NCBI GenBank assembly: GCA_013426185.1
Contig: CP058602.1
Coordinates: 74,231-138,230, forward strand
DNA length: 64,000 nt
Direction: 5' to 3'
DNA from: Candidatus Woesebacteria bacterium
GTDB taxonomy: Bacteria > Patescibacteriota > Microgenomatia > UBA8517
Shown: one piece after another, positions 39,660 to 63,913 of the stretch
Layout of the letters: each line of letters begins with the position of its first letter
Numbering within the stretch: the first letter of the stretch is position 1
The notes under the pieces: generated by a model
Database searches by the model: none
The model's input: the letters and a program-made list of their open reading frames with translations, nothing else
Told to the model about the DNA's origin: nothing
Program-made: the position numbers and the translations under genes

Positions 39660-40000
39660 TGAAGCCAGGTTTGAAGCAAATAAAGAGCAAATTACAAATT
39701 AAAAACAATATACAAATTACAATATACAAATTCTAAATTCTAATATCTAAATCCTAAACCCTGAACCAGAATAAATTCGATTCAGGGCAAGCAAATTCCA
39801 AATCACAAACAAATTAGGAACACTGAACTTAGTTGAATTATGGAAATAATGCATTCACCTGCATAATACATAATACAAGATACTAGATACAATCTTTCGG
39901 CTAGCTTCGACTGAATTCCGATAGTCGAAAGCTGATGGCTGATGACCGACAACCGACATCTGAAGTCTGACAGCTGATAGCCGATGTCTGATGCTGATTA
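39660..40000. repeat. mosaic intergenic repeat copy R10 (minus)
   Basis: module sharing. Confidence 0.9.
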
Positions 40001-47897: not shown

Positions 47898-48457
47898 TTT
47901 TCAAAAAAAAACAAACTCGTCAACTGCGAGTCTTGAGTTATTCTAGGAATATGTGTTTTTTTTGTCAAGAAGGAAAATTAGTCGGAGCTGGCCGAAAGAC
48001 AATATTGTATCTAGTATCTTGTATTATGTATTATGCAGGAAATACAAGTAGAAAGTAGAAAGTAGTAAGTAGAAAGTAGAAAGCAAAATTAATAAATAGT
48101 TAAAAGTTCAAAGTTAAAAGTTGGAATTTTTTGTTTGTAATTTGGAATTTGTGATTTGTAATTTTCCCTTTGTTCTTTGTTCTAACCTAGTAGGTAAAAG
48201 GCAAGAGGTAAAAGGTAAAAGGAATTCGAGTAGAAATTAGAACGTAGTAAGTAGAAAGCAAAATTCTATAATCTATAATCTATAATCCAAAATCCATAAT
48301 CTAATCATAAAAAGTTTTAACTTTTGAGTTTTAAGTTTTTAGTTAATTTGTTAATTTGTTAACTGTTAATTGTTATATTGTAATTTGTATATTGTTTGTA
48401 TATTGGAATTTGGAACTTGGAATTTGTAATTTTATTCTTTGTTCTTTGTTCTAATTT
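47898..48457. repeat. mosaic intergenic repeat copy R13 (plus)
   Basis: module sharing. Confidence 0.9.
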
Positions 48458-50416
<1,959 letters not shown>

Positions 50417-51088: not shown

Positions 51089-51450
51089 ATAAATTACAAA
51101 TTACAAATCACAAATTACAATATACAGATTCTAAATTCTAATATCTAAATTCTAAATCCTGAACCAGAATAAATTCGGTTCAGGGCAGGCAAATTACAAA
51201 TTACAAACAAAAAATTCCAACTTTTAACTTTTAACTTTGAACTTTTAACTATTTATTAATTTTGCTTTCTACTTACTACGTTCTACTTTCTACTTATATT
51301 TCCTGCATAATACATAATACAAGATACTAGATACAATCTTTCGGTCGGCTTCGACTGAATTCCGATAGCCGACAACTGAAGTCTCACAGCTGATAGCCGA
51401 TCTCCGATATCTGACATCCGATCTCCGAATTCCTCTTGCCACTTTTGGAA
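51089..51450. repeat. mosaic intergenic repeat copy R14 (minus)
   Basis: module sharing. Confidence 0.9.
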
Positions 51451-51471
51451 AAATGGGTTAAATTATTATTG

Positions 51472-53235
51472 ATGACAACTTCTGCTCAAATATCAACTAA
51501 AGCTAATCAGATTAATAATCAGGATGCTACTCTATCGCTTACTTTGGCTGATATCTTAGTGAAGCAAGGGTCAATAACCGAGGATAAAGCTAAGGAGATC
51601 AAGTTAGCTGAAATTCAGACTGGCAAAAACCAAGAGGCAATTGTTAAGTCTTTAGGAATAGTTTCGCCTGCAGATCTAGCTAAAGCGAAAGCTGCCTTGT
51701 TTAATATTCCTTTTATAGATTTGGCTAATGCTCCTGTTTCTCCTGAAGCTATGGCAATTTTGCCCAAGGAAATTGCTGAAAGATTTAAGGTCTTTCCTCT
51801 TTCTATTGATAAAGTCTCCAAGACATTGGATTTAGCGATGGCTGATCCTCTTGATCTTTTTGCTATTGAATTTGTTGAGCAGAAAACTAATCTTCGGGTT
51901 AGACTATATGCTTGTGATGAAGCTAAACTTGAGGAATTTATCACTGTTCGTTATGCCACTTCTCTTTCAAAAGAAGTAACGGAAGCTTTGAAAGATGTAG
52001 CTCCTGAAGTCAAGGAGGGTGCAAATGGAATAGCAGGAACTAAAGTCGGTTTTATTAAGGACGAAAAGATAGCAGAGATTGTGACCCAAATTCTTGATTT
52101 TGCTGTTCGAGCTAGAGCTTCTGATATTCATATAGAACCTCAAGAAAAATCAACTAGGGTTCGTTACAGAATTGATGGAATACTACAGGAGAAATTGACG
52201 ATACCTAAGGCTTTGCACAAAGCTCTTGTCTCAAGGATTAAGATCCTTTCTGGATTGAAGATAGACGAGAAAAGGGTGCCTCAGGATGGTAGGTTTAATT
52301 TTATGGGGGCTTCTGAAGATGTTGATTTGCGTATCTCTACTTTACCTACAGCTTGGGGAGAAAAGGTGGTTATGAGGCTTCTTAAAAAAACTGGTGGGGT
52401 ACCAGAACTACCAGAACTTGGTTTAAGGGGTCTTGCTCTTAAAAATTTGGAAACGGCAATACTTAGGCCTCATGGCATTATTATTATTTGTGGTCCTACT
52501 GGTTCTGGTAAAACTACCACTCTTTACTCTATTATTTCAAAAATTAATACCCCTAAAGTTAATATTGTTACTTTGGAGGACCCGATTGAGTATAAGATTC
52601 CTGGAGTTAATCAGGTGCAGGTTAATCCAGCTGCTGGTTTGACTTTTGCTTCTGGTTTGAGAGCTTTTTTGCGGCAAGACCCGAATATTATTCTAGTTGG
52701 TGAGATTCGTGACCGCGAGACTGCTGATTTGGCTATTCAAGCGTCTTTAACAGGTCATCTTGTCTTTTCTACCTTGCATACTAATGATGCGTCAGGAGCT
52801 TTTCCTCGTCTTTTGGATATGGGTGCTGAGCCTTATCTTTTGGCTTCTTCTATGACGGCTATTTTAGCCCAGAGGGTGGTCAGGAAAATTCACGAGGATT
52901 GTAAAGAAGAATATACCCCTGACCCAAAGGTGATTGAGGATATGAAAAATGTTTTAGGCCCTCTTTGGAATAAAGGTGAAGGAGAAGTTAAACTTTATCA
53001 TGGTACTGGTGATCCTGAATGTGGAGGGTCAGGGTACTATGGTAGAATTGGTATTTTTGAGGTAATGCCTGTTTCTGAAAAAATCAGTCGACTTATTTTG
53101 GAGCATAAGTCTGCTAGCGATATTGAGAAGGTGGCGCGTGAAGAAGGGATGATAACCATGAAGCAGGATGGCTATCTGAAGGTTCTTGAGGGAATTACTA
53201 CCATAGAAGAAGTCTTAAGGGTAGCCCAAGACTAA
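51472..53235 (+). CDS. pilB: Type IV pilus assembly ATPase PilB/GspE
   Basis: T2SSE_N domain, Walker A GPTGSGKTTT, C4 Cys; listed ORF begins with TTG at 51436 inside the repeat, ATG at 51472 preferred. Confidence 0.85.
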   Translation: MTTSAQISTKANQINNQDATLSLTLADILVKQGSITEDKAKEIKLAEIQTGKNQEAIVKSLGIVSPADLAKAKAALFNIPFIDLANAPVSPEAMAILPKEIAERFKVFPLSIDKVSKTLDLAMADPLDLFAIEFVEQKTNLRVRLYACDEAKLEEFITVRYATSLSKEVTEALKDVAPEVKEGANGIAGTKVGFIKDEKIAEIVTQILDFAVRARASDIHIEPQEKSTRVRYRIDGILQEKLTIPKALHKALVSRIKILSGLKIDEKRVPQDGRFNFMGASEDVDLRISTLPTAWGEKVVMRLLKKTGGVPELPELGLRGLALKNLETAILRPHGIIIICGPTGSGKTTTLYSIISKINTPKVNIVTLEDPIEYKIPGVNQVQVNPAAGLTFASGLRAFLRQDPNIILVGEIRDRETADLAIQASLTGHLVFSTLHTNDASGAFPRLLDMGAEPYLLASSMTAILAQRVVRKIHEDCKEEYTPDPKVIEDMKNVLGPLWNKGEGEVKLYHGTGDPECGGSGYYGRIGIFEVMPVSEKISRLILEHKSASDIEKVAREEGMITMKQDGYLKVLEGITTIEEVLRVAQD

Positions 53236-53282
53236 TTGTTTTTTTCTTTTGTATGGTGTAATCTGAATTAAATTACTGCCCT

Positions 53283-54347
53283 ATGCTTGATGTAATACAA
53301 CTTTTAAATCTAGCGGTTGAGAAGAAAGCTTCTGATTTGCATCTGATTGTAGGTGTTCCTCCTTACTTGCGTATCGATGGCCAGCTTTTGCCTGTGAATG
53401 AAGAACCTGTTGTTACCAGTGAGTTTATTGAAAAAGTAGCTACTACCGTTTTGAAACCTGAGCAATATGAGCGCTTTAAAGTTAATCGTGATCTTGATTT
53501 CTCTTTTTTTCTTTCTGATGTCGCTCGTTTTAGGGTTAATGCCTATTTTCAAAAAGGCAATTATTCTTTTTCTTTTCATGTTATTCCTTCTCAGATTTTG
53601 ACAGTAGAAGAATTAGGATTGCCTGAAGTTCTTCATTCTTTCACTCATCTAAGACAAGGATTTGTTTTGATAACCGGCCCTACTGGCCATGGAAAGTCTA
53701 CAACTTTAGCATCAATGCTCAACGAGATTAATAAAAATAGGAGCGAGCATATAGTGACTATTGAAGATCCAATTGAGTTTGTTATTCCACCAGTCAAATC
53801 TATCATCTCCCAAAGAGAAGTTGGTTTTGATACTCATTCTTGGCAGATAGCTCTTCGCTCTGTTTTAAGGGAAGATCCCGATGTGGTGATGATTGGTGAG
53901 ATGCGCGACTTGGAAACCATTTCTGCTGCTTTGACTGTGGCAGAAACAGGACATTTAGTTTTTGCTACTCTTCATACCAATTCAGCTTCTCAAACTATTG
54001 ATAGAATAGTTGATGTCTTTCCTGAAAATCAGCAAGGGCAAGTTAGGCTTCAACTCTCAAATACTCTAGAAGGAGTTTTCTCCATGCGTTTGGTTCCTGC
54101 TATAGGAGGAGGAAGAGTTGTTGCCTATGAACTTATGCTTGGAACACCAGCGGTTAGATCTGTAGTCCGTGATGGTAAAACTCATCTTCTAGATAATATC
54201 ATCCAAACTTCGCAAGAATTTGGCATGTCAACTTTAGAGATGTCTTTAGCTGAATTGGTAAAAACAGGAAAGATTTCTTTTGAGGTAGCTCAATCTTATT
54301 CCCTTAGAGTTGAAGAATTATCTCGTCTTGTTAAAGGTGAAAGTTAA
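53283..54347 (+). CDS. pilT: Twitching-motility retraction ATPase PilT
   Basis: Walker A GPTGHGKSTT, 354 aa. Confidence 0.85.
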   Translation: MLDVIQLLNLAVEKKASDLHLIVGVPPYLRIDGQLLPVNEEPVVTSEFIEKVATTVLKPEQYERFKVNRDLDFSFFLSDVARFRVNAYFQKGNYSFSFHVIPSQILTVEELGLPEVLHSFTHLRQGFVLITGPTGHGKSTTLASMLNEINKNRSEHIVTIEDPIEFVIPPVKSIISQREVGFDTHSWQIALRSVLREDPDVVMIGEMRDLETISAALTVAETGHLVFATLHTNSASQTIDRIVDVFPENQQGQVRLQLSNTLEGVFSMRLVPAIGGGRVVAYELMLGTPAVRSVVRDGKTHLLDNIIQTSQEFGMSTLEMSLAELVKTGKISFEVAQSYSLRVEELSRLVKGES

Positions 54348-54353
54348 AAAGCA

Positions 54354-55565
54354 ATGATGAGGTTTAACTTCAAAGCTAAGGATAAAAAAGGAAGATTAGT
54401 TGCAGGTTTGGTTGAAGCTAATGATGAAAAACATGCGGCATCTTTGGTTCGGGAAAAGGAATTGATTTTACTTTCTCTATCTCCTCAAAGGAAAGACAAC
54501 CTAAGTGTTATCATCAACAAATTTAAAAACAGGATTAAAGAGGATGATGTTTCTACTTTTACTCGTCAGCTAGCGACGATGGTCAACGCAGGATTGCCAA
54601 TTACTGAATTTTTGTTGATTTTGAAAAATCAGGCGCGAGGGGCAGCGCTTAAGGAGATGCTAAGCCAAATCTTGGCTGATGTCCAAGAGGGTCAATCGCT
54701 TTCTAGCGCAATAGGTAAGTATCCAAATGTCTTTTCCCCGACTTATATTGCCTTGTTGAAAGCGGGTGAAGCGGGAGGGGTTTTGGATAATGTTTTATCC
54801 CGTCTTTCTGATAATATGGAAAAGCAAGTTGAATTTAAAGGCAAGGTGAAAGGTGCGCTTATTTACCCTGTGATAGTTGTTATTGGAATGGTTTTGGTGG
54901 CAGCTATAATGATGATTTTTGTCATTCCCAAAATGCTAAGCCTTTATTCTGAGTTTGGAGCTGAGCTTCCGGGACCAACGAAAATTTTGATGTCTGTTTC
55001 CGGTTTTTTTGCTAAGTTTTGGTGGCTGATGTTAATCATAATTGCTTTTTTGATCAATTTCTTGATCACTTATCGCAAGACGAAAACCGGTAGAAGAAAA
55101 ATTGATGAGCTGATTTTGAAGATTCCGATCTTTGGCGACTTGCAGAGACAGGTGGCATTGACAGAATTAACAAGAACTTTGAGTCTCTTGGTTGGCGCTG
55201 GCGTTTCTATTCTTGAAGCTTTAGGAATTTTGTCGCAAATTTCAGGAAATGCTGTTATTGGTGATGCTCTTGAAGATAGTGCTAAACAGGTTGAAAAAGG
55301 TTTCCCTTTAGCCTACGCTTTTTCAAAACATCCCGAAGCTTTTCCTTATATTCTTTCTCAAATGGTGGCAGTGGGAGAAGAGACTGGGAAAATGAGCGAA
55401 GTTTTGGCTAAGGTTAGTCATGTCTTTGAGGTTGAATCGGATCAGAAAGTCAAGGCTTTGACTTCAGCTATCGAGCCGATTGTAATGGTGGTTTTGGGTG
55501 TTGGTGTTGGTTTCTTGGTCATCGCTGTTATTTTGCCGATTTATAATTTGACTAGCCAATTTTAG
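54354..55565 (+). CDS. pilC: Type IV pilus platform protein PilC/GspF
   Basis: two GspF domains, 3 TM, 403 aa. Confidence 0.85.
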   Translation: MMRFNFKAKDKKGRLVAGLVEANDEKHAASLVREKELILLSLSPQRKDNLSVIINKFKNRIKEDDVSTFTRQLATMVNAGLPITEFLLILKNQARGAALKEMLSQILADVQEGQSLSSAIGKYPNVFSPTYIALLKAGEAGGVLDNVLSRLSDNMEKQVEFKGKVKGALIYPVIVVIGMVLVAAIMMIFVIPKMLSLYSEFGAELPGPTKILMSVSGFFAKFWWLMLIIIAFLINFLITYRKTKTGRRKIDELILKIPIFGDLQRQVALTELTRTLSLLVGAGVSILEALGILSQISGNAVIGDALEDSAKQVEKGFPLAYAFSKHPEAFPYILSQMVAVGEETGKMSEVLAKVSHVFEVESDQKVKALTSAIEPIVMVVLGVGVGFLVIAVILPIYNLTSQF

Positions 55566-55617
55566 TTTAGAATTGGGTCTTGACAAAATTTTTCTAATTG
55601 TTTAAATTGAAACTAGT

Positions 55618-56178
55618 ATGAAATTATCTGCCAAAGGCTTCACCTTAATAGAGCTTCTCATAGTCATCGCGGTTTTGGGCATTCTGGCAGTTACTGTTCT
55701 TGCTGCTATTAATCCAATAGAACAGATTAATAGATTTCGTGATACTGGCTCTAGGTCCGATGCAGAGCAATTGATTGGAGCTATTGATAGGTTTTATGCC
55801 TCAAGAGGTTATTATCCGTGGCAGACGGTTGCTGGTACCGCTGGCGCTGCTGTTGCTTGGACGCAAGTCACTACAGCATGGTCGGGAGCTGCCACCACTT
55901 CCGTTTTGAGCCAATTATCTGCAGCAGGTACGAAGGAAATCAAGCAATCTTTTGTTAGTAGGATTACTGCACCTAACTATAATCCTTTATGGATCTATAA
56001 TAGAGGGCAGGCTGGTGACAGTTATTATATCTGTTTTTCACCTCAGTCTAGTTCCTTTAGAACAGAGGCTAACACAAGGTGTGCTAATACCTCTGGATCT
56101 GGTTTGCCAGTTGATTTGAGACCTATAGCAGGTACTGTATGCGGTAACACAATATCTCCATACTCTTGTCTTCCATAA
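55618..56178 (+). CDS. Type IV pilin (probable major pilin)
   Basis: class III signal KG|FTLIELLIVIAVLGILA, Glu+5. Confidence 0.8.
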   Translation: MKLSAKGFTLIELLIVIAVLGILAVTVLAAINPIEQINRFRDTGSRSDAEQLIGAIDRFYASRGYYPWQTVAGTAGAAVAWTQVTTAWSGAATTSVLSQLSAAGTKEIKQSFVSRITAPNYNPLWIYNRGQAGDSYYICFSPQSSSFRTEANTRCANTSGSGLPVDLRPIAGTVCGNTISPYSCLP

Positions 56179-56191
56179 TCTGTTATTTTCT

Positions 56192-57871
56192 ATGAGCTTG
56201 CTCAAGCAAAAAGCAAGTTTTTTGGTTTCAAAGCTTGGTAGTAGTTTTTTTTTGCTTTCTCTGGTTTTGATCTTGTCCTTTGTTTTTTACAGAATCTCGA
56301 TTAGATTTGAATATGTAAATCTAGATGATACTCTTTTGGTAAAGTATCGCCTTCTTTATATATTTAACCCCGCTAATATAATTAATTCTTTTAAAAGTAA
56401 TGTTATGTATCTTTCTGACAGTACCGCTTTTTATTATCGTCCGGTTCTTACAATATCTTTTATTTTAGATGCTTTAATTTTTAAAGATAATTTTTGGGGT
56501 TACCATCTAACTAACATACTGCTTCATCTTGTCTCTGTTGTTTTGTTCTATAGACTTATGCTTCGTCTTCGATTAGAAAAATATGTTTGTTTTTTTCTCA
56601 CACTAGTTTTTGCTCTTCATCCTGTTTTAATGCAGACTATAGTTTGGGTTCCTGGGAGAAATGACAGTCTTCTTTTTATTTTTTTGATTTCGGCTCTCTT
56701 TTATTTTTTGAATTATCTTGAATCATCTAGTCTGAAGGATTTTATCTTTTTTGTCTTTTTTACCTTTCTTGCGGTCTTTGTGAAAGAAACGGCAATAATG
56801 TTTTTGCCTGTCTTATTTCTTTTTATTTTTTTGGTTAGAAGAGACAAAAAAGCTTTTAAGAGATCTTTACCTCTTTTGGGCGTGTTTTTTTTAATGTTTG
56901 CCTTGTGGTACCTAATGGCTACTTCTTTTAGTGATAAGCAAGGTAGTTACTGGAGTTATCTGACAAGTACTAACTGGTTTGATGCTATACCAAAAACTAT
57001 AATACCGGGTTATCTGATCTATTTAGGCAAGATCTTTTATCCTTTTGCTCTCTCCGTCTTTCCTGTAGTCGATCTTCGAGATGCTAATATCTTTCCTGGT
57101 ATTGTAGCTTTTATCCTTCTTGTTTTTTCATTTTTATTTTTTGTTAAAGAGGGTAGAAAAAAGGTTTTTATTTTTGGTTTATTATGGTTTTTTATACTCC
57201 TTTTTCCAACTTTTATCAATCTTATGCCTGGAGAGCCGAATATAATTTACGAGCACAGACTCTATTTGCCCATTGTGGGTCTTCTAATTTCTTTTTCCCA
57301 GATCGAGTTTGTTAAAAGATCTCTCTCTAATAGTAAGGTGGCGTTTTTTTTATCTTTGATTATTACCCTTGTTTTTTTCTATGGTAATAGAAGGCATATA
57401 TTTAATTTCAAAGATAGCCTTTCTTTTTGGGAAAGTGCTTATTCCACTTCTTCTAAGCATTTTGTAACGGAAGTGGGCCTTTCGGGTGTTTATCTGTCTC
57501 GAGGTGATCTTGATAAGGCAGAGCCGGTCTTTAAGAAATTAGATGAGATAAAGCCAAATACGATAATATCACATTTGGGTTATGCTTCTTTGTTTTATCA
57601 TAAAGGGGAATATGAGAAGTCTTTGCAAGAGTTAGATGAGGTTTTGAAGATTAATCCGAAATTACCAAGAGCAATGCAATATATAGCATCAATCAAAGAA
57701 CATCAGGGTAAATATGATGAGGCTGAGAAATATTATCTTGAGGCTGTTGAGATTGATGACAAAAATGTAGATCTTTTAATGTCTTTGGTTTCCTTTTATG
57801 TTAAAAGGGGTAAAATTGATAAAGCTAAAGAAGTGTATAAAAAAGTTCAGGATATGGGAATTTCCTTTTGA
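56192..57871 (+). CDS. polytopic membrane protein (~12 TM) with C-terminal TPR repeats; GT-C/PMT-like candidate glycosyltransferase
   Basis: TM-rich N-terminal 400 aa + TPR block; located between pilin and pilD. Confidence 0.5.
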   Translation: MSLLKQKASFLVSKLGSSFFLLSLVLILSFVFYRISIRFEYVNLDDTLLVKYRLLYIFNPANIINSFKSNVMYLSDSTAFYYRPVLTISFILDALIFKDNFWGYHLTNILLHLVSVVLFYRLMLRLRLEKYVCFFLTLVFALHPVLMQTIVWVPGRNDSLLFIFLISALFYFLNYLESSSLKDFIFFVFFTFLAVFVKETAIMFLPVLFLFIFLVRRDKKAFKRSLPLLGVFFLMFALWYLMATSFSDKQGSYWSYLTSTNWFDAIPKTIIPGYLIYLGKIFYPFALSVFPVVDLRDANIFPGIVAFILLVFSFLFFVKEGRKKVFIFGLLWFFILLFPTFINLMPGEPNIIYEHRLYLPIVGLLISFSQIEFVKRSLSNSKVAFFLSLIITLVFFYGNRRHIFNFKDSLSFWESAYSTSSKHFVTEVGLSGVYLSRGDLDKAEPVFKKLDEIKPNTIISHLGYASLFYHKGEYEKSLQELDEVLKINPKLPRAMQYIASIKEHQGKYDEAEKYYLEAVEIDDKNVDLLMSLVSFYVKRGKIDKAKEVYKKVQDMGISF

Positions 57872-58677
57872 AAGAAATGATTTTACTTATTATTTTTATT
57901 CTTGGTTTAATTTTTGGTTCTTTTGTTTCGGCTGTTACCTATCGCCTTCCAAAAGGAATTTCTTTTATTTCAGGTCGGTCTTTTTGTCCTAATTGTAAGC
58001 ACAATATTTCTTGGTACGACAATATTCCTCTTTTTTCTTTTTTGCTTCTTCGCGGCCGTTGCCGGTATTGTGGCAAAAAAATTTCTTGGCGCTATCCCCT
58101 ACTTGAGCTAATAACAGGATTGGGGTTTGTTTTGATTTATTTGTCTTATCTCTCCTGTCTTGGACAAGGTCCGACCCTGTCCAGTAATTTTTTTTGCAGT
58201 CAGGCTGGAAGAATGGGATTTTTTACCCTTCCCTATTGGTTCTTCACTTTTATCTTGCTTCTTGTTGTTTTTGTCATAGATTTTGAACATAAAGTTGTCT
58301 TTGACAGCTTGGTCTTTATTCTTTTTATTTTTTTTCTTGCCACTTCCCTTTTCTTTTCGGATAGCACTTTGTATCTCAACTTGTTGGTAGCTTTTTCTAT
58401 TTCATTATTTTTCTTATTTTTGCATCTTTTTACCTCTGGTCGGGGTATGGGGCTTGGGGATGTTAAATTAGCCTTGCCTCTTGGTTTTTATCTTGGATTT
58501 CCTCTTAGTTTGGTTTGGCTTTTTCTTTCTTTCTTGACTGGAGCAGCAGTTGGAATTATATTGATATTATTGGGCAGGGCTAAATTTGGAAAGCCGATTC
58601 CATTTGGTCCTTTTATGATCTTTTCTTTTTGGGTGGTGTTATTTTTAGGCGAAAGAATAATTTTTTTCTTAAGATGA
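57868..58677 (+). CDS. pilD: Prepilin peptidase (A24 family)
   Basis: N-term CxxC...CxxC zinc motif, DiS_P_DiS + peptidase A24 TM core. Confidence 0.85.
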   Translation: MKEMILLIIFILGLIFGSFVSAVTYRLPKGISFISGRSFCPNCKHNISWYDNIPLFSFLLLRGRCRYCGKKISWRYPLLELITGLGFVLIYLSYLSCLGQGPTLSSNFFCSQAGRMGFFTLPYWFFTFILLLVVFVIDFEHKVVFDSLVFILFIFFLATSLFFSDSTLYLNLLVAFSISLFFLFLHLFTSGRGMGLGDVKLALPLGFYLGFPLSLVWLFLSFLTGAAVGIILILLGRAKFGKPIPFGPFMIFSFWVVLFLGERIIFFLR

Positions 58678-59324
58678 AAAGAAAAAGTGCTTTTACTTTA
58701 ATTGAGCTTTTGGTTGTGGTTGCTTTTTTGTCTTTGATGGTTTTGGTGGCTATTTTTGCTTTTAAAGGACCCTTGTTTAAGGGTTATGATGCGAGGAGAA
58801 AGTCAGATCTCAATAGGATTAAAATAGCTCTTGAAGAATATGAGAAAGATCATAATTGTTACCCTCCTTATTTGCCTTCTTGCAAGGGTTCAGATGCTGG
58901 TATTTTAAAATCATATATACCCATTATCCCTTATGATCCTCATACTAAAACTGATTATCTTTATTATCCTGATCCTACATCAACTTGTGCTAAATGGGCT
59001 TGGCTTTTTACCAATCTAGAATATACTGGTGATCCGAAAATTACAGAAATCGGTTGTCAAAACGGCTGTGGACCAAATCAAGCTTATGGTTTTAATTATT
59101 ATGTGACTACTCCTGGTGCTCCTGATCCTTTTAAGTCTGGTAGCGCCAATGTCCCCCCTGATGTCAGTGGTAATTATTATGGTTGTTTTTCTGGGGTTTG
59201 CCAACCAATAGGAGTTAACTCAGATACTCATCTACCAGTCTGTCAACCTAATTTTACTAGTTCTGATTGTCGTAACTTATGTCAAGACGAATCTGGTCCC
59301 ATAAACGAATGCAACTCTTACTAA
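58674..59324 (+). CDS. Type IV pilin-like protein, Cys-rich C-terminus
   Basis: SAFTLIELLVVVAF prepilin motif; listed ORF start 58629 overlaps pilD, ATG 58674 preferred. Confidence 0.75.
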   Translation: MKRKSAFTLIELLVVVAFLSLMVLVAIFAFKGPLFKGYDARRKSDLNRIKIALEEYEKDHNCYPPYLPSCKGSDAGILKSYIPIIPYDPHTKTDYLYYPDPTSTCAKWAWLFTNLEYTGDPKITEIGCQNGCGPNQAYGFNYYVTTPGAPDPFKSGSANVPPDVSGNYYGCFSGVCQPIGVNSDTHLPVCQPNFTSSDCRNLCQDESGPINECNSY

Positions 59325-59881
59325 GCTTAAAAAAAGATTTTTGGAAATTGTTTTTTTTGTTTTTTTTGGTTTCTCTAGCTTCTGCTTTGGGTTTTAATGA
59401 ATCTGACAAAAGAGAAAGAGATGTCAGAAGGAATGAAGATATTAGTAATATTGCCAAGGCAATAGAAGCTTACAGGCAGGCTTTTGGCTATTATCCTGAA
59501 TCAAAAGATGGAAAAATAGTAGCTTGCGCGGGTAATGATACCAAAGTTTTAAGGGATAAAAATGTTCTTGGAATAAGAGAAAAAGGAGCTAGCCGAGATA
59601 AACTGGTTGGTCTTGCTCCTTGTGAGTGGGGTCAAGATCCTCTAAGAGATGTTTCAGATGGTAATTACCCTGCTTTTTTAGACAAACTTCCTCAAGATCC
59701 AGAGTCTAGTCGTGGTTTTAGCTACCGCTACGATTTTGAAAACGGTCGTTACTTTGTTTATGTAGCTTACGAGACAAAAAGAATGCCTGACTATAGCAAG
59801 AATGTATTAAACAAAAAAGTTGCTTGTGGATACAAATTTTGTAATGGAGCTCGTACAAATGGCATTGAAATAGTCAAATAA
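59279..59881 (+). CDS. pilin-paralog-like protein lacking canonical prepilin cleavage motif
   Basis: hydrophobic segment then RDVRRNEDISNIAKAIEAYRQAFGYYP resembling neighbouring pilins. Confidence 0.5.
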   Translation: MSRRIWSHKRMQLLLSLKKDFWKLFFLFFLVSLASALGFNESDKRERDVRRNEDISNIAKAIEAYRQAFGYYPESKDGKIVACAGNDTKVLRDKNVLGIREKGASRDKLVGLAPCEWGQDPLRDVSDGNYPAFLDKLPQDPESSRGFSYRYDFENGRYFVYVAYETKRMPDYSKNVLNKKVACGYKFCNGARTNGIEIVK

Positions 59882-59903
59882 TGATGTTAATATGAATTAG
59901 ATT

Positions 59904-60467
59904 ATGCATAGCCTGCCTTATCAAGAAAGAAAATCTCCAGCTTTTACTTTAATTGAGCTTCTGGTTTCAATAACTATTTTAGGGATATTAGCCGTTGTTG
60001 TTTTGGGTGGTTTTAGATCGTCACAGATGAGATCGCGTGATGCAAAAAGGAAATCTGATTTAAAGCAAATTGCCAATGCTTTGGAGATGTTTTATTCAGA
60101 TAAGGGGTTTTATCCGCCTTCAACAGCTGATGGCAGAATTAGAGCTTGCCCTTACTATGCACCTCCCGATACTCCAATAGTTTGTAATTGGGGATCCATT
60201 GATTACACTAGCGAGTTTAAAGATGCTAGTAGCGGAGTGATCTACTTCAAATCACTTCCCAAAGATCCTTCGGGATTTTCTTATTATTATCGTTTAACCA
60301 ACGATGGCAAGGGATTTCAACTTTATGCACACCTGGAAAATGATCAAGATCAGAATTGCATTGATTCAAATTGCTCTATGGTGTCTGGGCTTCCTAGCGG
60401 TGTTAGTTGTTCTGGGGTTTGCAATTTTGCTATTACCAGTGCAAATGTCACAGCAAAAACTAATTAG
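59904..60467 (+). CDS. Type IV pilin-like protein
   Basis: PAFTLIELLVSITILGILA; RDAKRKSDLKQIANALEMFY. Confidence 0.8.
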   Translation: MHSLPYQERKSPAFTLIELLVSITILGILAVVVLGGFRSSQMRSRDAKRKSDLKQIANALEMFYSDKGFYPPSTADGRIRACPYYAPPDTPIVCNWGSIDYTSEFKDASSGVIYFKSLPKDPSGFSYYYRLTNDGKGFQLYAHLENDQDQNCIDSNCSMVSGLPSGVSCSGVCNFAITSANVTAKTN

Positions 60468-60476
60468 TATAATAAT

Positions 60477-60965
60477 ATGAGAAAAAGAAGCGGTTTAGGT
60501 TTTACCCTGATCGAGCTTTTGGTAGTTATTTCTATTATTGGAATTTTGGCAACATTGCTTTTGGCAAATTACAGCGCGACTCGTGAGAGAGCAAGAGATG
60601 CGCAAAGAAAGTCTGACTTAAGAAACATCCAGACAGCTTTGAGAATGTTTTATAATGATTTTAATAGATATCCTAGTTCCAGCAGTGGGCAGATAGTTGG
60701 TTGCGGGACCAGTGGTAATACTGTCTGCGGTTGGGGTGGAACTTTTTCGGCAGGTTCAACCAATGTTGTCTATATGAATATTCTTCCTAAAGATCCGCAG
60801 AGTAATAGGAGCTACAATTATGTCGCTGCAGGTGGTGAGTATACTCTTTCTGCGTGTTTAGAAAACAAGGGTGATGATAAATGCAAAAAGGATGCTAGTG
60901 GTAATTTGGTTTCTTGCTCTTGGATGTCAGGGGTTGATGGTTGTGTTTATGAGGTCAAGCCGTGA
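60477..60965 (+). CDS. Type IV pilin-like protein
   Basis: LGFTLIELLVVISIIGILA; RDAQRKSDLRNIQTAL. Confidence 0.8.
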   Translation: MRKRSGLGFTLIELLVVISIIGILATLLLANYSATRERARDAQRKSDLRNIQTALRMFYNDFNRYPSSSSGQIVGCGTSGNTVCGWGGTFSAGSTNVVYMNILPKDPQSNRSYNYVAAGGEYTLSACLENKGDDKCKKDASGNLVSCSWMSGVDGCVYEVKP

Positions 60966-61419
60966 TATGCTAGTATCAAGTATCACGAAGCAAGTGTCAG
61001 GAATAGGTAAAAGGCAAGAGGTAAAAGAATTCGGACATCAGACATCGGCCGTTGGCTGTCGGATGTTAGAACTTAGTCGAATCTAGCCGGAAGCTAGTAT
61101 TTAGTATTTGGTATTTTGTATTATGTATTATGGGGATAATGCATTTTCTTGCATAATACATAATTCATAATACTAAGTTCAGTGTTCCTAATCTGTTTGT
61201 AATTTGTTTATTGGTATTTGTATATTGTTTGTATATTGGAATTTGTGATTTGTAATTTTTGTTTAGGATTTAGATATTAGAAATTAGAATTTAGAATTTG
61301 TAGTTTGGTTTGCTGGTTCTTGAATGTAGTAAGTAGAAAAGTATTGTGATTTTTAAAAGTTTTGGCTAGACTTATTTTAGTTGGTTGTTGAGGTTTGGAA
61401 GTTGCTAGTTGTGTTTACA
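60966..61419. repeat. mosaic intergenic repeat copy R15 (plus) inside the pilin array
   Basis: module sharing. Confidence 0.9.
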
Positions 61420-61887
61420 ATGAAAATTAATAACAAAAAAAATTACAAAATGATTGGTTTTACCTTAATTGAACTTTTGGTAGTTATTGCTATTATTGGT
61501 ATTCTTGCTTCCTTAGCCTTGGTTTCCTATACTCGCTCGCAAAAACAGGCAAGAGACACAAGAAGGAAGTCAGATTTGAAACAGTATCAAGTTGCTTTGG
61601 AAAATTATGCTAATCAGAATAATGGTATATATCCTGTTAAAACGACTACTTTTCAAGCTGTTAGTTTTTGCAATTCTGGCCAAGCACTTTATGGGCTTTC
61701 TTGTCCAGACGATCCTGACGCTACAAGACATTATAATTATCTAAGTCTGAGCGACGGTTCTGAATATGCGCTTTGGGCTCAACTTGAGGCTTATCAAACT
61801 GGACAGTATTGGGTTGTTTGCTCAAGTGGTAAAAGCGGAGAAAGTACTACTCAGCCTTCAACTAGTAGTATTTGTCCGGTTCCATAA
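61420..61887 (+). CDS. Type IV pilin-like protein
   Basis: MIGFTLIELLVVIAIIGILA; RDTRRKSDLKQYQVAL. Confidence 0.8.
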   Translation: MKINNKKNYKMIGFTLIELLVVIAIIGILASLALVSYTRSQKQARDTRRKSDLKQYQVALENYANQNNGIYPVKTTTFQAVSFCNSGQALYGLSCPDDPDATRHYNYLSLSDGSEYALWAQLEAYQTGQYWVVCSSGKSGESTTQPSTSSICPVP

Positions 61888-61889
61888 TT

Positions 61890-62339
61890 ATGGTCTTATT
61901 TGATAACAAACATCTTAATGAAAAGTATCTTAAGGGTTTTACTTTAATTGAGCTTTTGGTGGTTATTTCTATTATTGGGATTTTGATTTCCCTTTCCCTT
62001 TTTGGAATTCAAAATTCGCGAAAGAGCGCAAGAGATGCTAAGCGCAAATCAGACCTTGAATCCATACGCTCTGCGCTTGAGATGTATAAAGCGGATAATG
62101 GCAGATATCCGTCTACTAGTTCTGGTATGAATGCTTCATCCCTCGCTATTTCAAGCTACATTTCTTCTGTTCCCACGGATCCTATTAGTGGAAGAATTTA
62201 TGTATATCGTTGCACTAATGTTAGTGGGTCTAATTGTCTTGCTTATGATTTATGTGCAGCTCTTGAGACAGGAAGCGGTTCCATATCGTGCGGCATAAGT
62301 TGTGGGGTAAGTTGTAATTATAAGACAACAAATCCTTGA
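61890..62339 (+). CDS. Type IV pilin-like protein
   Basis: KGFTLIELLVVISIIGIL; RDAKRKSDLESIRSALEMY; ATG 61890 preferred to TTG 61872. Confidence 0.75.
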   Translation: MVLFDNKHLNEKYLKGFTLIELLVVISIIGILISLSLFGIQNSRKSARDAKRKSDLESIRSALEMYKADNGRYPSTSSGMNASSLAISSYISSVPTDPISGRIYVYRCTNVSGSNCLAYDLCAALETGSGSISCGISCGVSCNYKTTNP

Positions 62340-62350
62340 AAAATGTTTTT

Positions 62351-62956
62351 ATGGAATTAAAAACTGCCTTTAAAAATCGAGGTTTTACTTTAATCGAACT
62401 CCTTGTTTTCCTTCTTGTTGTTTTCATCTTAGTTGGTCTTGGTTACGCCAACTTTCGTAAGTACGCTCAAAAACAGGCTTTATGGGCCGTGGCAAGGCAA
62501 ATAGAAGGCGACCTCCACCTTGCTCAAAGTTATGCAATGTCTGGTAAGGATGCATCAAGTTGTATTTCTGGAACCTACCTTTATGGTTATCAACTTTTTA
62601 AGCTTAGCGATCGTTCTTATAGTATTCGCCGTGTTTGCCGTAGCCCACAAGGTACCTTTATTTATAGCGATGTGTCTCCTTATCGTTATATACCAGAAGG
62701 ATTTGAGATAGATAGAAACTTCTCTTTAGTTTCGTTTCGATCAGTTGTTGGTGGAGTTGATAGCCCCGTGTCTATTAATATTAGACGTAATTTAGCACCA
62801 AGTTCTTATATTGTTATAAATGTTTTATCAACAGGGGCGATTTCTTTATCTTATAGTGATGGAGGATCTGCTATATTTCCTACTTCTACACCTACACCAC
62901 CCGGAGATGTGTTACCGCCACCTGGCATACCCATTAGTACGCCCATTTTGTATTAG
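62351..62956 (+). CDS. minor pilin/pseudopilin-like protein with Pro/Thr-rich C-terminus
   Basis: RGFTLIELLVFLLVV; ATG 62351 preferred to TTG 62336. Confidence 0.7.
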   Translation: MELKTAFKNRGFTLIELLVFLLVVFILVGLGYANFRKYAQKQALWAVARQIEGDLHLAQSYAMSGKDASSCISGTYLYGYQLFKLSDRSYSIRRVCRSPQGTFIYSDVSPYRYIPEGFEIDRNFSLVSFRSVVGGVDSPVSINIRRNLAPSSYIVINVLSTGAISLSYSDGGSAIFPTSTPTPPGDVLPPPGIPISTPILY

Positions 62957-62982
62957 TTTGTTCATTTTATAATGAGTGAATT

Positions 62983-63435
62983 ATGAGAAAAAATCTTTTG
63001 AATTCAGGGCAGTCTCTGATCGAGCTTTTGGTGGCTTTGACTTTGATAATGCTTGTAGTTGTGGCGGTTGTCGGTTTAGCGGCCGTTTCTATCAAAACTT
63101 CCTATTTTGCCAAAAGAGAAACAGCTGCCAAAAGATATGTTGAGGAGGCGATGGAATGGTTGAGGGAACAAAAGAAAAGTGATTGGACTGATTTCTTGTT
63201 TACTAAGTCAACTACCACGAGTCAGACGTATTGTTTTAACTTGTCGCCTGTTACTAGCTGGCCAGTGGTTGGTTCTTGTAGCGGCGCGACTTTGGGTGGA
63301 ATTTATAAGCGGGAGGCGACTTTATTAAGGTCGTCTGATAACAAAAATGTAACAGTGACGGTGGTTGTTTCTTGGAGCGATTCATCAGGAACCCATGACA
63401 CAAAATTGGTTTCTGTCTTTACCGCGCCTAATTGA
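62983..63435 (+). CDS. minor pilin/pseudopilin-like protein
   Basis: N-term GQSLIELLVALTLIMLVV. Confidence 0.65.
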   Translation: MRKNLLNSGQSLIELLVALTLIMLVVVAVVGLAAVSIKTSYFAKRETAAKRYVEEAMEWLREQKKSDWTDFLFTKSTTTSQTYCFNLSPVTSWPVVGSCSGATLGGIYKREATLLRSSDNKNVTVTVVVSWSDSSGTHDTKLVSVFTAPN

Positions 63436-63436
63436 T

Positions 63437-63913
63437 ATGTTTAAGAATAATCTGAAGGAAAAGGGATTTACTTTAATCGAGATGCTTGTTGTTATTGCTC
63501 TTTTTGCGGGTCTTGCTGTTTTGGTGGGTAGTATGGTGGGCTCATCCATGAAGGGAACGAAGAAAAGTGAATCGGTGATGAAAGTTAGAGCGGAGCTTGA
63601 AAATGCCGTTTCTATTTTAGAGAGGTCTTTAAGAGAAGCTAAAAAAGATTCGGTTATATGTAATGGCAATAGTACTGTTTCTTTTACTGATCAAAATGGT
63701 TTTAATGTTACTCTCAGTTGCTTGCCCCTTAGTAAGAACAGTGTTGAACTCATTAATAGTTCAAATATAAACTTAACAGCTTGTAACTTTGATTGCACTA
63801 ATCTCTCGAAAGGTGTTGTAGTTATAACTCTTACTGGCAGTAGTGCAAGTTCTAGTGGTGTTGAGGCTGACATTGCTACTGTTTCGGCGAGGGTTGTTTT
63901 AAGAAATTACTAG
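63437..63913 (+). CDS. minor pilin/pseudopilin-like protein
   Basis: KGFTLIEMLVVIALFAGLA; ATG 63437 preferred to overlapping 63365 start. Confidence 0.7.
   Translation: MFKNNLKEKGFTLIEMLVVIALFAGLAVLVGSMVGSSMKGTKKSESVMKVRAELENAVSILERSLREAKKDSVICNGNSTVSFTDQNGFNVTLSCLPLSKNSVELINSSNINLTACNFDCTNLSKGVVVITLTGSSASSSGVEADIATVSARVVLRNY

What the first reader, a model, noticed from the sequence alone, without database searches (positions are those of the whole stretch)
56192..57871. Multi-TM + TPR membrane protein wedged between major pilin and prepilin peptidase: candidate pilin glycosyltransferase
The protein is 559 aa. The N-terminal ~400 aa hold ~12 predicted TM helices; the C-terminal ~150 aa are TPR repeats. 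This architecture matches GT-C-fold glycosyl/mannosyltransferases (PMT/ArnT-like). Its position directly after a pilin gene parallels pilin-glycosylation arrangements such as TfpW next to pilA in Pseudomonas. A pilin-modifying enzyme would be notable in a minimal genome.
Basis: inference. Interest (0 to 1): 0.55.

Follow-up and report, generated by a model that had tools for sequence, protein, structure and literature searches.

The report
Pilin-linked membrane glycosyltransferase in Patescibacteria
A gene sitting between the main pilus-subunit gene and the pilus-processing peptidase of a tiny-genome (Patescibacteria) bacterium encodes a lipid-sugar-dependent membrane glycosyltransferase with an outward-facing protein-binding TPR domain, and it most likely sugar-coats the pilus subunits, much as TfpW does in Pseudomonas.

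Summary
ORF 56192-57871 (+) encodes 559 aa, with pilin 55618-56178 upstream (13-nt gap) and PilD downstream (overlapping or 5 nt apart), inside pilB-pilT-pilC-pilin-X-pilD-pilins.

The N-terminal ~400 aa match Pfam PMT_2 above threshold. The AF2 model (pLDDT 93.5) hits only GT-C enzymes (STT3, ArnT, PMT, PglB, Emb) in the PDB. Invariant D45-D46, Y82-R83-P84, R156-x-D158, K198-E199 and E354-H-R356-x-Y358 correspond to catalytic and donor-binding motifs M1-M4 and M7 of metazoan TMTC O-mannosyltransferases. An 11-helix, N-in topology puts the four TPRs outside the cell.

The family is very large: 51,037 cluster representatives. At 79 species-representative loci none lies near T4P genes, and 33 have a small GT2 within 6 kb.

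One clade is different. In at least 8 lineages, with GT identity as low as 32% and PilB ~69%, the pilin-GT(-PilD) order is kept. dN/dS is 0.16-0.29.

P. aeruginosa TfpW has the same architecture and gene position. Sequence-level membership in the TfpW family could not be tested.

Pilin targeting is inferred, at about 0.55. No donor-synthesis gene lies in the window. This is a new member of a known kind and is moderately interesting.

The parts
56192..57871 (+). GT-C/TPR glycosyltransferase gene (559 aa), the finding itself
   Evidence: ORF. Pfam PMT_2 plus TPRs. AF2 pLDDT 91.8. dN/dS 0.16-0.29.
56192..57415 (+). Membrane GT-C catalytic domain, aa 1-408, modelled as 11 TM helices with the N-terminus in the cytoplasm
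   Evidence: PMT_2 at 42.7 bits. Foldseek top 31 hits are all GT-C enzymes. Positive-inside count is 17 versus 7.
56324..56329 (+). Codons for D45-D46, the GT-C 'DD' catalytic motif in external loop 1 (TMTC motif M1; TfpW DDX)
   Evidence: Invariant or near-invariant in 70- and 28-sequence alignments. Kept in all pilin-linked orthologues. Motif definitions from PMC7801869 and the TfpW preprint.
56435..56443 (+). Y82-R83-P84 in external loop 1 (the YRP end of TMTC motif M2, SHKSYRP)
   Evidence: R83 and P84 invariant, Y82 >=90% conserved.
56657..56665 (+). R156-N157-D158 in external loop 2 (TMTC motif M3, RxD)
   Evidence: Invariant in the family alignments. One pilin-linked orthologue, L104, has L in place of R.
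56783..56788 (+). K198-E199 in external loop 3 (TMTC motif M4, KE(T/Q)). In TMTC models these residues bind the donor phosphate and the metal.
   Evidence: Invariant. Role taken from PMC7801869.
57020..57064 (+). Y277-x6-P284-F285-x5-P291 in external loop 4, a proline motif resembling TfpW YX6PFX7P and EmbC YX6PX5P
   Evidence: G279, K280, P284 and P291 are >=90% conserved.
57251..57265 (+). E354-H355-R356-L357-Y358 in external loop 5 (TMTC motif M7, ERxxY; arginine that binds the donor phosphate)
   Evidence: R356 and Y358 invariant, E354 and H355 >=90% conserved.
57416..57868 (+). C-terminal TPR domain, aa 409-559, 4 TPRs plus a capping helix, predicted to lie outside the membrane
   Evidence: Pfam TPR_8, TPR_19 and TPR_2. 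AF2 helices 409-554. More conserved than the TM domain.
55618..56178 (+). PilinA (186 aa): type IVa-like prepilin, candidate major pilin and proposed acceptor. Conserved aa 1-70, then a hypervariable S/T/G/A-rich loop at about aa 70-105.
   Evidence: N_methyl and TIGR02532. Orthologue alignment A3. Orthologues precede the GT in L001, L002, L093, L097, L101, L102, L104 and L105.
55580..55608 (+). Promoter-like site TTGACA-17-TAAATT just upstream of pilinA
   Evidence: Consensus scan only, 10 of 12 matches. Not evidence of function.
57868..58677 (+). Prepilin peptidase PilD. Its start overlaps or abuts the GT stop codon.
   Evidence: A24_N_bact 119.6 bits, Peptidase_A24 49.6 bits. Junction sequence.
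51436..55565 (+). PilB (51436-53235), PilT (53283-54347) and PilC (54354-55565): the T4P motor and platform genes upstream in the same orientation
   Evidence: ORFs. T2SSF for PilC. T2SSE and MshEN annotations of the syntenic genes in L001 and L002.
58629..63913 (+). Array of at least 9 further pilin-like genes downstream of PilD, possible additional acceptors
   Evidence: ORFs with FTLIE-type N-termini. N_methyl hits. Syntenic in L001, L002, L101 and L105.

Best explanation
The gene encodes an inverting-type GT-C glycosyltransferase that uses a polyprenyl-phosphate-linked sugar on the outer face of the cytoplasmic membrane.

Shown here:
- The fold.
- The Pfam family.
- Conservation of the motifs.
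- Gene order across the clade.
- Purifying selection.

Inferred:
- The 11-helix N-terminal domain carries the active site in its external loops. D45-D46 would act as catalytic base or metal site. R83, K198-E199 and R356 would hold the donor phosphate.
- The C-terminal four-TPR domain, also outside the cell, would act as the acceptor-protein docking module, as in TMTC1-4 and TfpW.
- The gene is co-transcribed between pilinA and pilD, and that order is kept across a whole clade. The acceptor is therefore most likely the membrane-anchored (pre)pilin made from the gene just upstream, and possibly the other pilins of the operon.
- The pilin would be O-glycosylated on Ser/Thr of its exposed, hypervariable alpha-beta loop before or around PilD cleavage and PilB/PilC-driven assembly.
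- The lipid-linked donor would be made by a small GT2 polyprenyl-phosphate glycosyltransferase encoded elsewhere in the genome. Paralogues of this GT in other Patescibacteria sit directly behind such a GT2, sometimes with GtrA.
- The sugar is unknown. Likely benefits are pilus stability, masking from phages, or tuning of host binding.
For: Enzyme identity:
- PMT_2 lies above the gathering cut-off.
- The N-domain AF2 model has pLDDT 93.5. All 31 top Foldseek PDB hits are GT-C enzymes: STT3/OST, ArnT 5f15/5ezm, Pmt4, Pmt1/2, PglB, EmbA/B/C, ALG3 and DPY19. Their probability is ~0.9-1.0 and TMq 0.33-0.54. Later hits have probability <0.15.
- Invariant D45, R83, P84, P144, G155, R156, D158, K198 and E199, with near-invariant D46, Y82, H143, E354, H355, R356 and Y358. 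These map onto TMTC motifs M1-M4 and M7.

Topology:
- K+R is 17 inside versus 7 outside for the N-in / TPR-out model.

Three-component logic in relatives:
- A GT2 lies directly upstream in 19 of 79 loci and within 6 kb in 33 of 79. GtrA is present in 4.
- The paradigm is described in PMC11127046.

Pilin linkage:
- The order pilinA-GT-PilD, or at least pilinA-GT, is found in the window, L091/L092, L093, L097, L001, L002, L101, L102, L104 and L105.
- Across these, PilB falls to 69% identity, PilC to 61%, pilinA to 46-62% and the GT to 32-34%.
- None of the 79 other loci has PilB, PilT, PilC or PilD within 6 kb.
- The catalytic motifs are kept in the pilin-linked orthologues.
- dN/dS is 0.16-0.29, and the TPR domain is the more conserved part.

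Precedent:
- TfpW has 11 TM helices, DDX in loop 1, a proline motif in loop 4 and a periplasmic TPR domain.
- Its gene lies immediately downstream of pilA, and it is necessary and sufficient for pilin glycosylation.

The pilinA alpha-beta loop is S/T-rich and hypervariable in the orthologues.
Against: - No biochemical or glycoproteomic evidence exists, and neither acceptor nor sugar is known.
- No GT2, GtrA or sugar-nucleotide gene lies in the 64-kb window, so the donor pathway for this organism is unverified.
- The whole gyrB-holB-pilB...pilin region is syntenic across the clade, so part of the conserved order may be inheritance rather than selection.
- S/T-rich patches also occur in several other pilins of the operon, so they do not single out pilinA.
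- One member of the NJ clade, P0110/L103, is not T4P-linked.
- One pilin-linked orthologue, L104, has lost the conserved arginine of the RxD motif.
- Sequence homology to TfpW could not be tested.
Confidence: 0.55

Rival explanations
1. It is an active GT-C/TPR glycosyltransferase, but it is not pilin-specific. It would be a general protein O-glycosyltransferase, or an enzyme that decorates another envelope molecule such as an S-layer-like protein, a lipoglycan or a wall polymer. Its place in the pilus operon would reflect co-expression with envelope functions or historical accident.
For: - The family is huge and almost never T4P-linked: 0 of 79 species-representative loci and 51,037 cluster representatives.
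- In other Patescibacteria it sits with a GT2, or GT2 plus GtrA, next to ribosomal or cell-wall genes.
- The whole region is syntenic in the clade.
- S/T-rich patches are not unique to pilinA.
Against: - The exact pilinA-GT-PilD order, with tight spacing, persists while the GT itself diverges to about 32% identity.
- TPR-bearing GT-C enzymes studied so far (TMTC, TfpW) are protein-specific.
- The GT evolves at pilin-like rates, faster than PilB or PilC.
Confidence: 0.3
2. It is a non-catalytic pilus assembly factor. The TPR domain would scaffold or stabilise pilins or machinery parts, as the PilF/PilW/Tgl TPR proteins do, and the membrane domain would be only an anchor.
For: - JGI names for homologues include 'PilF' and 'TadD'.
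- NCBIfam gives weak TPR-only similarity to PilW, Tgl and GltE.
- L104 lacks the RxD arginine.
Against: - Those hits are far below their cut-offs (37 versus 154 bits) and cover only generic TPRs.
- All catalytic and donor-binding motifs of an active GT-C are invariant under purifying selection.
- Patescibacteria are generally held to lack an outer membrane, so they would have no secretin for a pilotin to serve. This rests on general knowledge and was not tested here.
Confidence: 0.05
3. It is a Wzy_C / O-antigen-ligase-type O-oligosaccharyltransferase (PglL/TfpO/PilO-like) that transfers preassembled undecaprenyl-PP-linked glycans to pilin.
For: It has the same biological role and a similar gene position: tfpO lies downstream of pilA in P. 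aeruginosa group I strains.
Against: - There is no Wzy_C hit in Pfam, only PMT_2.
- The fold hits are all GT-C, not the Wzy/ligase fold.
Confidence: 0.02

Closest known systems
TfpW, the P. aeruginosa Pa5196/PA7 (group IV) pilin D-arabinofuranosyl transferase
   Same: [quoted passage not shown]
- DD(X) motif in external loop 1 and a Tyr/Pro motif in loop 4.
- Large external C-terminal TPR domain, with ArnT-like modelling.
- Gene immediately downstream of the major pilin gene.
- The proposed role, O-glycosylation of pilin Ser/Thr from a polyprenyl-P-sugar, is the same.
   Different: - The host here is a Patescibacteria lineage, not a gammaproteobacterium.
- Size is 559 aa versus 646 aa.
- The loop-4 motif spacing is Y-x6-P-F-x5-P versus Y-x6-P-F-x7-P.
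- The gene lies between pilA and pilD, and there is no tfpX.
- No D-Araf pathway genes were seen in the window. Paralogues of this GT pair with a GT2 of the GtrB/DPM1 type, which suggests a different donor.
- Sequence similarity to TfpW could not be measured here.
Metazoan TMTC1-4 cadherin/protocadherin O-mannosyltransferases (CAZy GT105, from my own knowledge)
   Same: - 11 TM GT-C domain plus a C-terminal lumenal or external TPR domain.
- Motifs M1 (DD), M3 (RxD), M4 (KE[T]) and M7 (E-x-R-x-Y) match, and the YRP end of M2 matches.
- Pfam PMT_2 clan.
- A protein-specific acceptor that is itself an adhesion molecule.
   Different: - There is no DUF1736 (loop-4) signature and no DW motif M5.
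- The H and K of motif M2 are not conserved.
- Only 4 TPRs are present.
- The lipid carrier would be bacterial, and the sugar is unknown.
PMT/POMT (GT39) and ArnT (GT83) GT-C enzymes
   Same: Same fold, with Foldseek hits 9i5k, 6p25, 5f15 and 5ezm, the same Pfam clan (PMT_2/PMT) and an acidic loop-1 motif.
   Different: - PMTs carry a MIR domain in a lumenal loop rather than C-terminal TPRs.
- ArnT modifies lipid A rather than a protein.
- There is no significant sequence hit to any solved structure.
GtrA/GtrB/Gtr* three-component extracytoplasmic glycosylation systems
   Same: Paralogues in other Patescibacteria show GT2 (GtrB-like), with or without GtrA, directly upstream of the GT-C gene. 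The logic is described in PMC11127046.
   Different: - Classical Gtr* enzymes modify O-antigen and have no TPR domain.
- In this window the GT2 and GtrA partners are absent.
PglL / TfpO (PilO) / TfpM pilin O-oligosaccharyltransferases
   Same: Pilin O-glycosylation, with tfpO also directly downstream of pilA.
   Different: They belong to a different family (Wzy_C) and use a different donor, Und-PP-oligosaccharide. There is no Wzy_C hit here.

Membership tests
GT-C superfamily, PMT_2/ArnT-like (Pfam PF13231 clan) | Significant match to the family HMM | tested here: met
   PMT_2 scores 39.9 bits (full length) and 42.7 bits (N-domain) against a cut-off of 26.1. 25 of 28 family N-domains hit PMT_2 and 2 hit PMT.
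GT-C superfamily, PMT_2/ArnT-like (Pfam PF13231 clan) | GT-C membrane fold | tested here: met
   AF2 N-domain model has pLDDT 93.5 and pTM 0.93. Foldseek PDB ranks 1-31 are all GT-C enzymes, and non-GT-C hits have probability <0.15. E-values are modest (2e-3 and weaker), so the weight rests on the exclusivity of the hit list.
GT-C superfamily, PMT_2/ArnT-like (Pfam PF13231 clan) | Acidic DD/DE/DxD motif in the first extracytoplasmic loop | tested here: met
   D45-D46 follow TM1. D45 is invariant, and D46 is invariant in A4 and >=90% in A1.
GT-C superfamily, PMT_2/ArnT-like (Pfam PF13231 clan) | Use of a polyprenyl-phosphate-linked sugar donor; catalytic activity | not testable with these tools
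   Indirect only: conserved K198, E199 and R356, and GT2/GtrA adjacency of paralogues.
TMTC family (metazoan O-mannosyltransferases) | [quoted passage not shown] | tested here: met
   AF2 helices, a hydropathy model and the positive-inside count of 17 versus 7. This is a prediction, not an experiment.
TMTC family (metazoan O-mannosyltransferases) | Conserved motifs M1-M7 of Eisenhaber et al. 2021 | tested here: inconclusive
   M1, M3, M4 and M7 are present. M2 is partial (YRP only). M5 (DW) is not identified. M6 (PxxP) was not checked rigorously.
TMTC family (metazoan O-mannosyltransferases) | DUF1736 signature in loop 4 | tested here: not met
   No DUF1736 hit in the query or in any of the 28 family N-domains. 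I therefore call it TMTC-like, not a TMTC member.
TfpW family (pilin-linked GT-C/TPR) | Gene immediately downstream of the major pilin gene | tested here: met
   There is a 13-nt gap after pilinA. The order is conserved in at least 8 lineages.
TfpW family (pilin-linked GT-C/TPR) | 11 TM helices, DDX in loop 1 and a periplasmic C-terminal TPR domain | tested here: met
   compared with the TfpW description.
TfpW family (pilin-linked GT-C/TPR) | Proline-rich motif YX6PFX7P in loop 4 | tested here: inconclusive
   The window has Y277-x6-P284-F285-x5-P291. The Y-x6-P part matches, the spacing to the last P differs, and the residue after P284 varies in orthologues.
TfpW family (pilin-linked GT-C/TPR) | Detectable sequence homology to TfpW (AAM52060.1). 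Published TfpW homologues share 30-47% identity. | not testable with these tools
   No TfpW sequence was obtainable.
TfpW family (pilin-linked GT-C/TPR) | Associated D-Araf donor pathway (PRPP-dependent polyprenyl-P-ribose synthase and DprE1/E2-like epimerases) | tested here: inconclusive
   None was seen among the window ORFs scanned, but the window is only about 8% of a ~0.8-Mb genome.
PglL/TfpO O-oligosaccharyltransferases (Wzy_C) | Wzy_C / O-antigen ligase domain | tested here: not met
   PMT_2 is the only non-TPR Pfam family found.
TMEM260 / DUF2723 GT-C | DUF2723 HMM match | tested here: not met
   No hit in the N-domain scan at E<=0.01.
T4P TPR pilotins (PilF/PilW/Tgl) | Match above the NCBIfam cut-off; a lipoprotein without a polytopic domain | tested here: not met
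   TIGR02521 scores 37.1 against 154, and Tgl scores 27.3 against 225. Both cover the TPR region only. The protein is polytopic.

The most novel reading that the evidence does not exclude
A clade of Patescibacteria has captured a TMTC-like, TPR-guided GT-C enzyme into its type IV pilus operon as a dedicated pilin O-glycosyltransferase.

If so, this would be the first enzyme identified for pilus glycosylation in the candidate phyla radiation. It would also be a bacterial counterpart of the metazoan enzymes that O-mannosylate cadherins: the same enzyme design decorating adhesion molecules in both domains.

The fast-evolving GT and the hypervariable S/T-rich pilin loop would then reflect an arms race with phages or tuning of host recognition in episymbionts.
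Probability: 0.35. Interest if true: 0.65.

Novelty: new member of a known kind. Interest (0 to 1): 0.45.

Why it matters
Type IV pili are central to the episymbiotic lifestyle of Patescibacteria. For Saccharibacteria, pilin glycosylation has so far only been predicted, and no enzyme has been named (PMC11623550).

This locus offers a concrete, testable candidate enzyme-substrate pair: pilinA plus the GT, with catalytic residues D45 and D46 to mutate. It can be reconstituted heterologously, so an uncultivated organism is not a barrier.

It also gives a functional foothold for a very large, uncharacterised bacterial family of TMTC-like GT-C/TPR proteins, with 51,037 cluster representatives. It links that family to the GT2/GtrA three-component logic.

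If the link to TfpW is confirmed by sequence, pilin-linked GT-C/TPR enzymes would span both Pseudomonadota and the CPR.

Tried and rejected
- Foldseek of the full-length model against the PDB returned only TPR proteins. I re-modelled the N-domain alone, which solved the problem.
- phmmer and profile searches against PDB sequences found only TPR matches and no GT-C hit. The GT-C assignment therefore rests on Pfam and fold.
- NCBIfam gave only sub-threshold TPR hits, including PilW, Tgl and TadD-like names. I rejected these as generic TPR similarity.
- The PADLOC scan, run in case pilus-glycosylation defence models exist, found nothing relevant.
- tblastn against plasmids, run in the hope of an annotated TfpW-like homologue, found no match.
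- A search for donor-pathway genes in the window found nothing. This covered tblastn with six GT2/GtrA queries, HMMs built from 38 GT2 and 4 GtrA neighbours, and Pfam on 30 window ORFs. Only housekeeping genes turned up.
- Ser/Thr composition of the pilins was tried as a discriminator. PilinA has 9 S/T in its richest 20-aa window, but pil6, pil7 and pil9 have 10, so this is not discriminating.
The close clade had to be found through the metagenome scan and the representative search.
- The NJ clade is not purely T4P-linked. P0110 lies among [FeFe]-hydrogenase maturase genes.
Full report
**1. Observation**

ORF 56192-57871 (+) starts with ATG and encodes 559 aa. It lies in a same-strand type IV pilus (T4P) operon:
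- PilB, 51436-53235
- PilT, 53283-54347
- PilC, 54354-55565
- a 186-aa prepilin, 55618-56178, with the leader MKLSAKG|FTLIELL (N_methyl and TIGR02532)
- the target ORF
- PilD, 57868-58677 (A24_N_bact plus Peptidase_A24)
- at least 9 further pilin-like ORFs running to 63913

The target starts 13 nt after the pilin stop. Its TGA stop overlaps a TTG start of PilD, or lies 5 nt before an ATG start. No terminator-like site separates the three genes. A promoter-like site lies just upstream of the pilin (consensus match only).

The window has about 37% G+C. Its closest named relative is a 785,860-bp Patescibacteria contig (AP024680.1, KatS3mg088), so 'minimal genome' is apt.

**2. What the protein is**

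Pfam results:
- PMT_2 (PF13231) covers aa 94-236 at 39.9 bits against a cut-off of 26.1. It scores 42.7 bits on the N-domain alone.
- Strong TPR matches cover aa 430-555.
- Of 28 family N-domains, 25 hit PMT_2 and 2 hit PMT. None hits DUF1736, DUF2723 or Wzy_C.
- NCBIfam gives only sub-threshold TPR similarities.

Structure:
- AlphaFold2 with a 70-sequence alignment gives pLDDT 91.8 and pTM 0.91 for the whole protein. The N-terminal 420 aa alone give pLDDT 93.5 and pTM 0.93.
- Foldseek of the full model was swamped by TPR proteins.
- The N-domain model returned GT-C glycosyltransferases in ranks 1-31: STT3/OST, ArnT 5f15/5ezm, Pmt4 9i5k, Pmt1/2 6p25, PglB, EmbA/B/C, ALG3 and DPY19. Probability was ~0.9-1.0 and TMq 0.33-0.54.
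- After rank 31, probability drops below 0.15. The E-values are modest (2e-3 and weaker), so the argument rests on the exclusivity of the hit list together with the Pfam match.
- Sequence searches against solved structures found only TPRs.

**3. Catalytic anatomy**

In alignments of 70 and 28 homologues, the invariant or near-invariant residues are:
- D45-D46
- Y82-R83-P84
- H143-P144
- W152-x-P-G-R156-N-D158
- K198-E199
- G279-K280...P284...P291
- E354-H355-R356-x-Y358

These correspond to motifs that Eisenhaber et al. defined for human TMTC1-4 (PMC7801869):
- M1: DD in external loop 1
- M2: the YRP end of SHKSYRP
- M3: RxD in loop 2
- M4: KE(T/Q) in loop 3, which binds the phosphate and metal
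- M7: the arginine of loop 5 that binds the donor phosphate

Motif M5 and DUF1736 are not found. The protein is therefore TMTC-like rather than a TMTC member.

A model with 11 spanning helices fits the data. In this model, hydrophobic helix 262-282 lies in loop 4, as in TMTCs. Short loops then carry 17 K+R on the inside and 7 on the outside, with the N-terminus inside and the TPR domain outside.

**4. Family and contexts**

The N-domain alone finds 51,037 cluster representatives at E<=1e-3. Of these, 15,784 reach 1e-10 and 775 reach 1e-30. Only one exceeds 50% identity. Homologues occur in Patescibacteria, Omnitrophota, Elusimicrobiota, Bacteroidota, Margulisiibacteriota and other phyla.

I scanned 79 species-representative loci at about 30% identity:

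| Feature near the GT gene | Loci (of 79) |
|---|---|
| PilB, PilT, PilC or PilD within 6 kb | 0 |
| ~235-aa GT2 (PF00535) directly upstream, often overlapping | 19 |
| GT2 within 6 kb | 33 |
| GtrA present | 4 |
| Tandem paralogues | 7 |

This is the GtrB/GtrA/GT-C three-component layout for extracytoplasmic glycosylation from a polyprenyl-phosphate sugar (PMC11127046). It supports the donor type for the family.

**5. The pilus-linked clade**

The same order, PilB-PilT-PilC-pilinA-GT-PilD-pilins, occurs in several loci:
- L001: GT 68% identical.
- L002: GT 51-53% identical.
- L091 and L092: GT 96% identical, DNA 93% identical to the window.
- L093 and L097: short contigs carrying pilinA-GT.

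L001 and L002 are close relatives of the window, with GyrB 90-92% identical. On their own they say little.

The exhaustive representative search and an NJ tree of 346 N-domains then picked out more distant candidates. I looked up the context of five of them:
- P0121 (L101) and P0133 (L105) have the full operon order.
- P0128 (L104) shows pilinA-GT-PilD on a 2.9-kb contig.
- P0125 (L102) shows pilinA-GT.
- P0110 (L103) is not pilus-linked and sits among hydrogenase maturase genes.

In L101 and L105, identities to the window are PilB ~69-70%, PilC 61%, pilinA 46-54%, PilD 43-45% and GT 32-33%.

The arrangement therefore survives while the GT diverges as far from the query as the GT2-linked paralogues are. 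All catalytic motifs persist in these orthologues, except that L104 has Leu in place of R156.

dN/dS is 0.16-0.29, and the TPR domain is more conserved than the membrane domain. Within the operon the GT evolves faster than PilB, PilT and PilC, at rates like those of the pilins.

**6. The candidate acceptor**

PilinA has a conserved N-terminal ~70 aa that ends in GYYPW. A hypervariable, S/T/G/A-rich stretch follows:
- window: QTVAGTAGAAVAWTQVTTAWSGAATTSVLSQLSAAGT
- L093: carries an insertion, TPTSPSLPLTT
- L104: NTGTTDTNTTLSWTT...

A conserved C-terminal half with four Cys completes the protein. The variable stretch is the alpha-beta loop, which from general knowledge of the Neisseria and Pseudomonas systems is a known site of pilin O-glycosylation.

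The evidence is weak, however. Other pilins of the operon have equally S/T-rich patches.

**7. Comparison with known systems**

The best functional match is TfpW of P. aeruginosa Pa5196/PA7 (bioRxiv 10.1101/2020.04.19.049825):
- It has 646 aa, a cytoplasmic N-terminus and 11 predicted TM helices.
- It has an essential DDX motif in periplasmic loop 1 and a YX6PFX7P motif in loop 4.
- It has a periplasmic C-terminal TPR domain, and ArnT is its best modelling template.
- Its gene lies immediately downstream of pilA.
- It is necessary and sufficient for pilin arabinosylation.

The window protein shares every architectural feature. It has a similar loop-4 motif, Y277-x6-P-F-x5-P291, with different spacing. 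I could not obtain a TfpW sequence, so membership by sequence is untested.

A paper on Saccharibacteria pili states that pilin glycosylation there is only predicted and remains unexplored (PMC11623550). Searches of the held library found no description of a GT-C gene inside a CPR pilus operon.

**8. Mechanism and confidence**

| Claim | Confidence |
|---|---|
| Active GT-C enzyme using a lipid-phosphate sugar, with active site and TPRs outside the cell | ~0.9 |
| Acceptor is pilinA and/or other pilins of the operon | ~0.55 |

The second figure rests on conserved tight gene order and the TfpW and TMTC precedents.

The main rival, at ~0.3, is an envelope or general protein glycosyltransferase that merely resides in the operon. 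A non-catalytic TPR assembly factor (~0.05) and a Wzy_C-type O-OTase (~0.02) are disfavoured or refuted.

The main gap is the donor pathway. No GT2, GtrA or sugar-activation gene lies in the 64-kb window.

**9. Verdict**

This is a new member of a known kind, a TfpW-like pilin-linked GT-C/TPR enzyme, found in an uncultivated small-genome lineage and belonging to a vast TMTC-like family. Interest is moderate (0.45). It is not surprising in principle, but it provides a directly testable enzyme-substrate pair for CPR pilus glycosylation.

Noticed in passing
window ~6163-6538, 13456-13750, 19996-20167, 24862-25281, 26220-26618, 29820-30055, 31802-32190, 33486-33926, 39679-39984, 43689-44260, 45203-45680, 47976-48460, 51089-51439, 61004-61308: A dispersed intergenic repeat family occurs at 14 or more sites, in both orientations, with copies 70-97% identical. 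Each copy has a conserved head (CCTGCATAATACATAATACAAGATACTAAATACAAT-CTTCCGG...CGACTGAATTCCGATAG) followed by a run of degenerate 7-nt units (TCCGATA/TCTGATA/GCCGACG). Many copies end just upstream of a start codon in the same orientation: pilB, gyrA, the H+-PPase, the Na+/H+ exchanger and PGA_cap. There is no Rfam match. The repeat is also present in relatives L091 and L092. This is unusual for a ~0.8-Mb genome, and its function is unknown (shared promoter/leader, regulator-binding array or mobile element).
   Followed up: partly
window 58629-63913: At least 9 pilin-like genes follow PilD, some overlapping. Several have Ala or another residue instead of Gly at the -1 cleavage position (SA|FTLIE in 58629-59324, PA|FTLIE in 59904-60467). 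ORF 59279-59881 has no canonical prepilin motif but is syntenic in relatives.
   Followed up: partly
L104:582-2208: One pilin-linked orthologue of the GT has Leu in place of the otherwise invariant Arg of the loop-2 RxD motif (PGLNDLL). All its other catalytic motifs are intact.
   Followed up: no
L002:7884-9551 (P0005): The public gene call for this orthologue (516 aa) starts at L-D-D, which cuts off TM1. A longer ORF starting at 7884 restores the N-terminus. This is probably a mis-called start.
   Followed up: partly
L077, L084, L034, L035, L061, L073, L085: Outside Patescibacteria (Planctomycetia, Omnitrophota, Bacteroidota MAGs) the GT-C/TPR gene often occurs as 2-3 tandem paralogues. This suggests families of acceptor-specific enzymes.
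   Followed up: no
window 10577-11068: A small cupredoxin / plastocyanin-azurin-like copper protein (PF13473, PF00127) is encoded in this small Patescibacteria genome. A 2-phospho-L-lactate transferase CofD-family protein is encoded at 19025-19993.
   Followed up: no
window 51436-53235: The listed TTG start of PilB probably over-extends the gene by about 14 codons. Relatives are 581-587 aa, and an ATG giving MTTSAQIS... lies downstream. The intergenic repeat described above runs up to this region.
   Followed up: no
window 55830-56306 vs L093: Between near relatives, DNA similarity is high through pilC and the pilin 5' half (about 91%), is lost across the pilin 3' half, and resumes at about 74% in the GT. 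This is the mosaic pattern expected for diversifying or recombining pilin alleles together with their linked modifying enzyme.
   Followed up: partly
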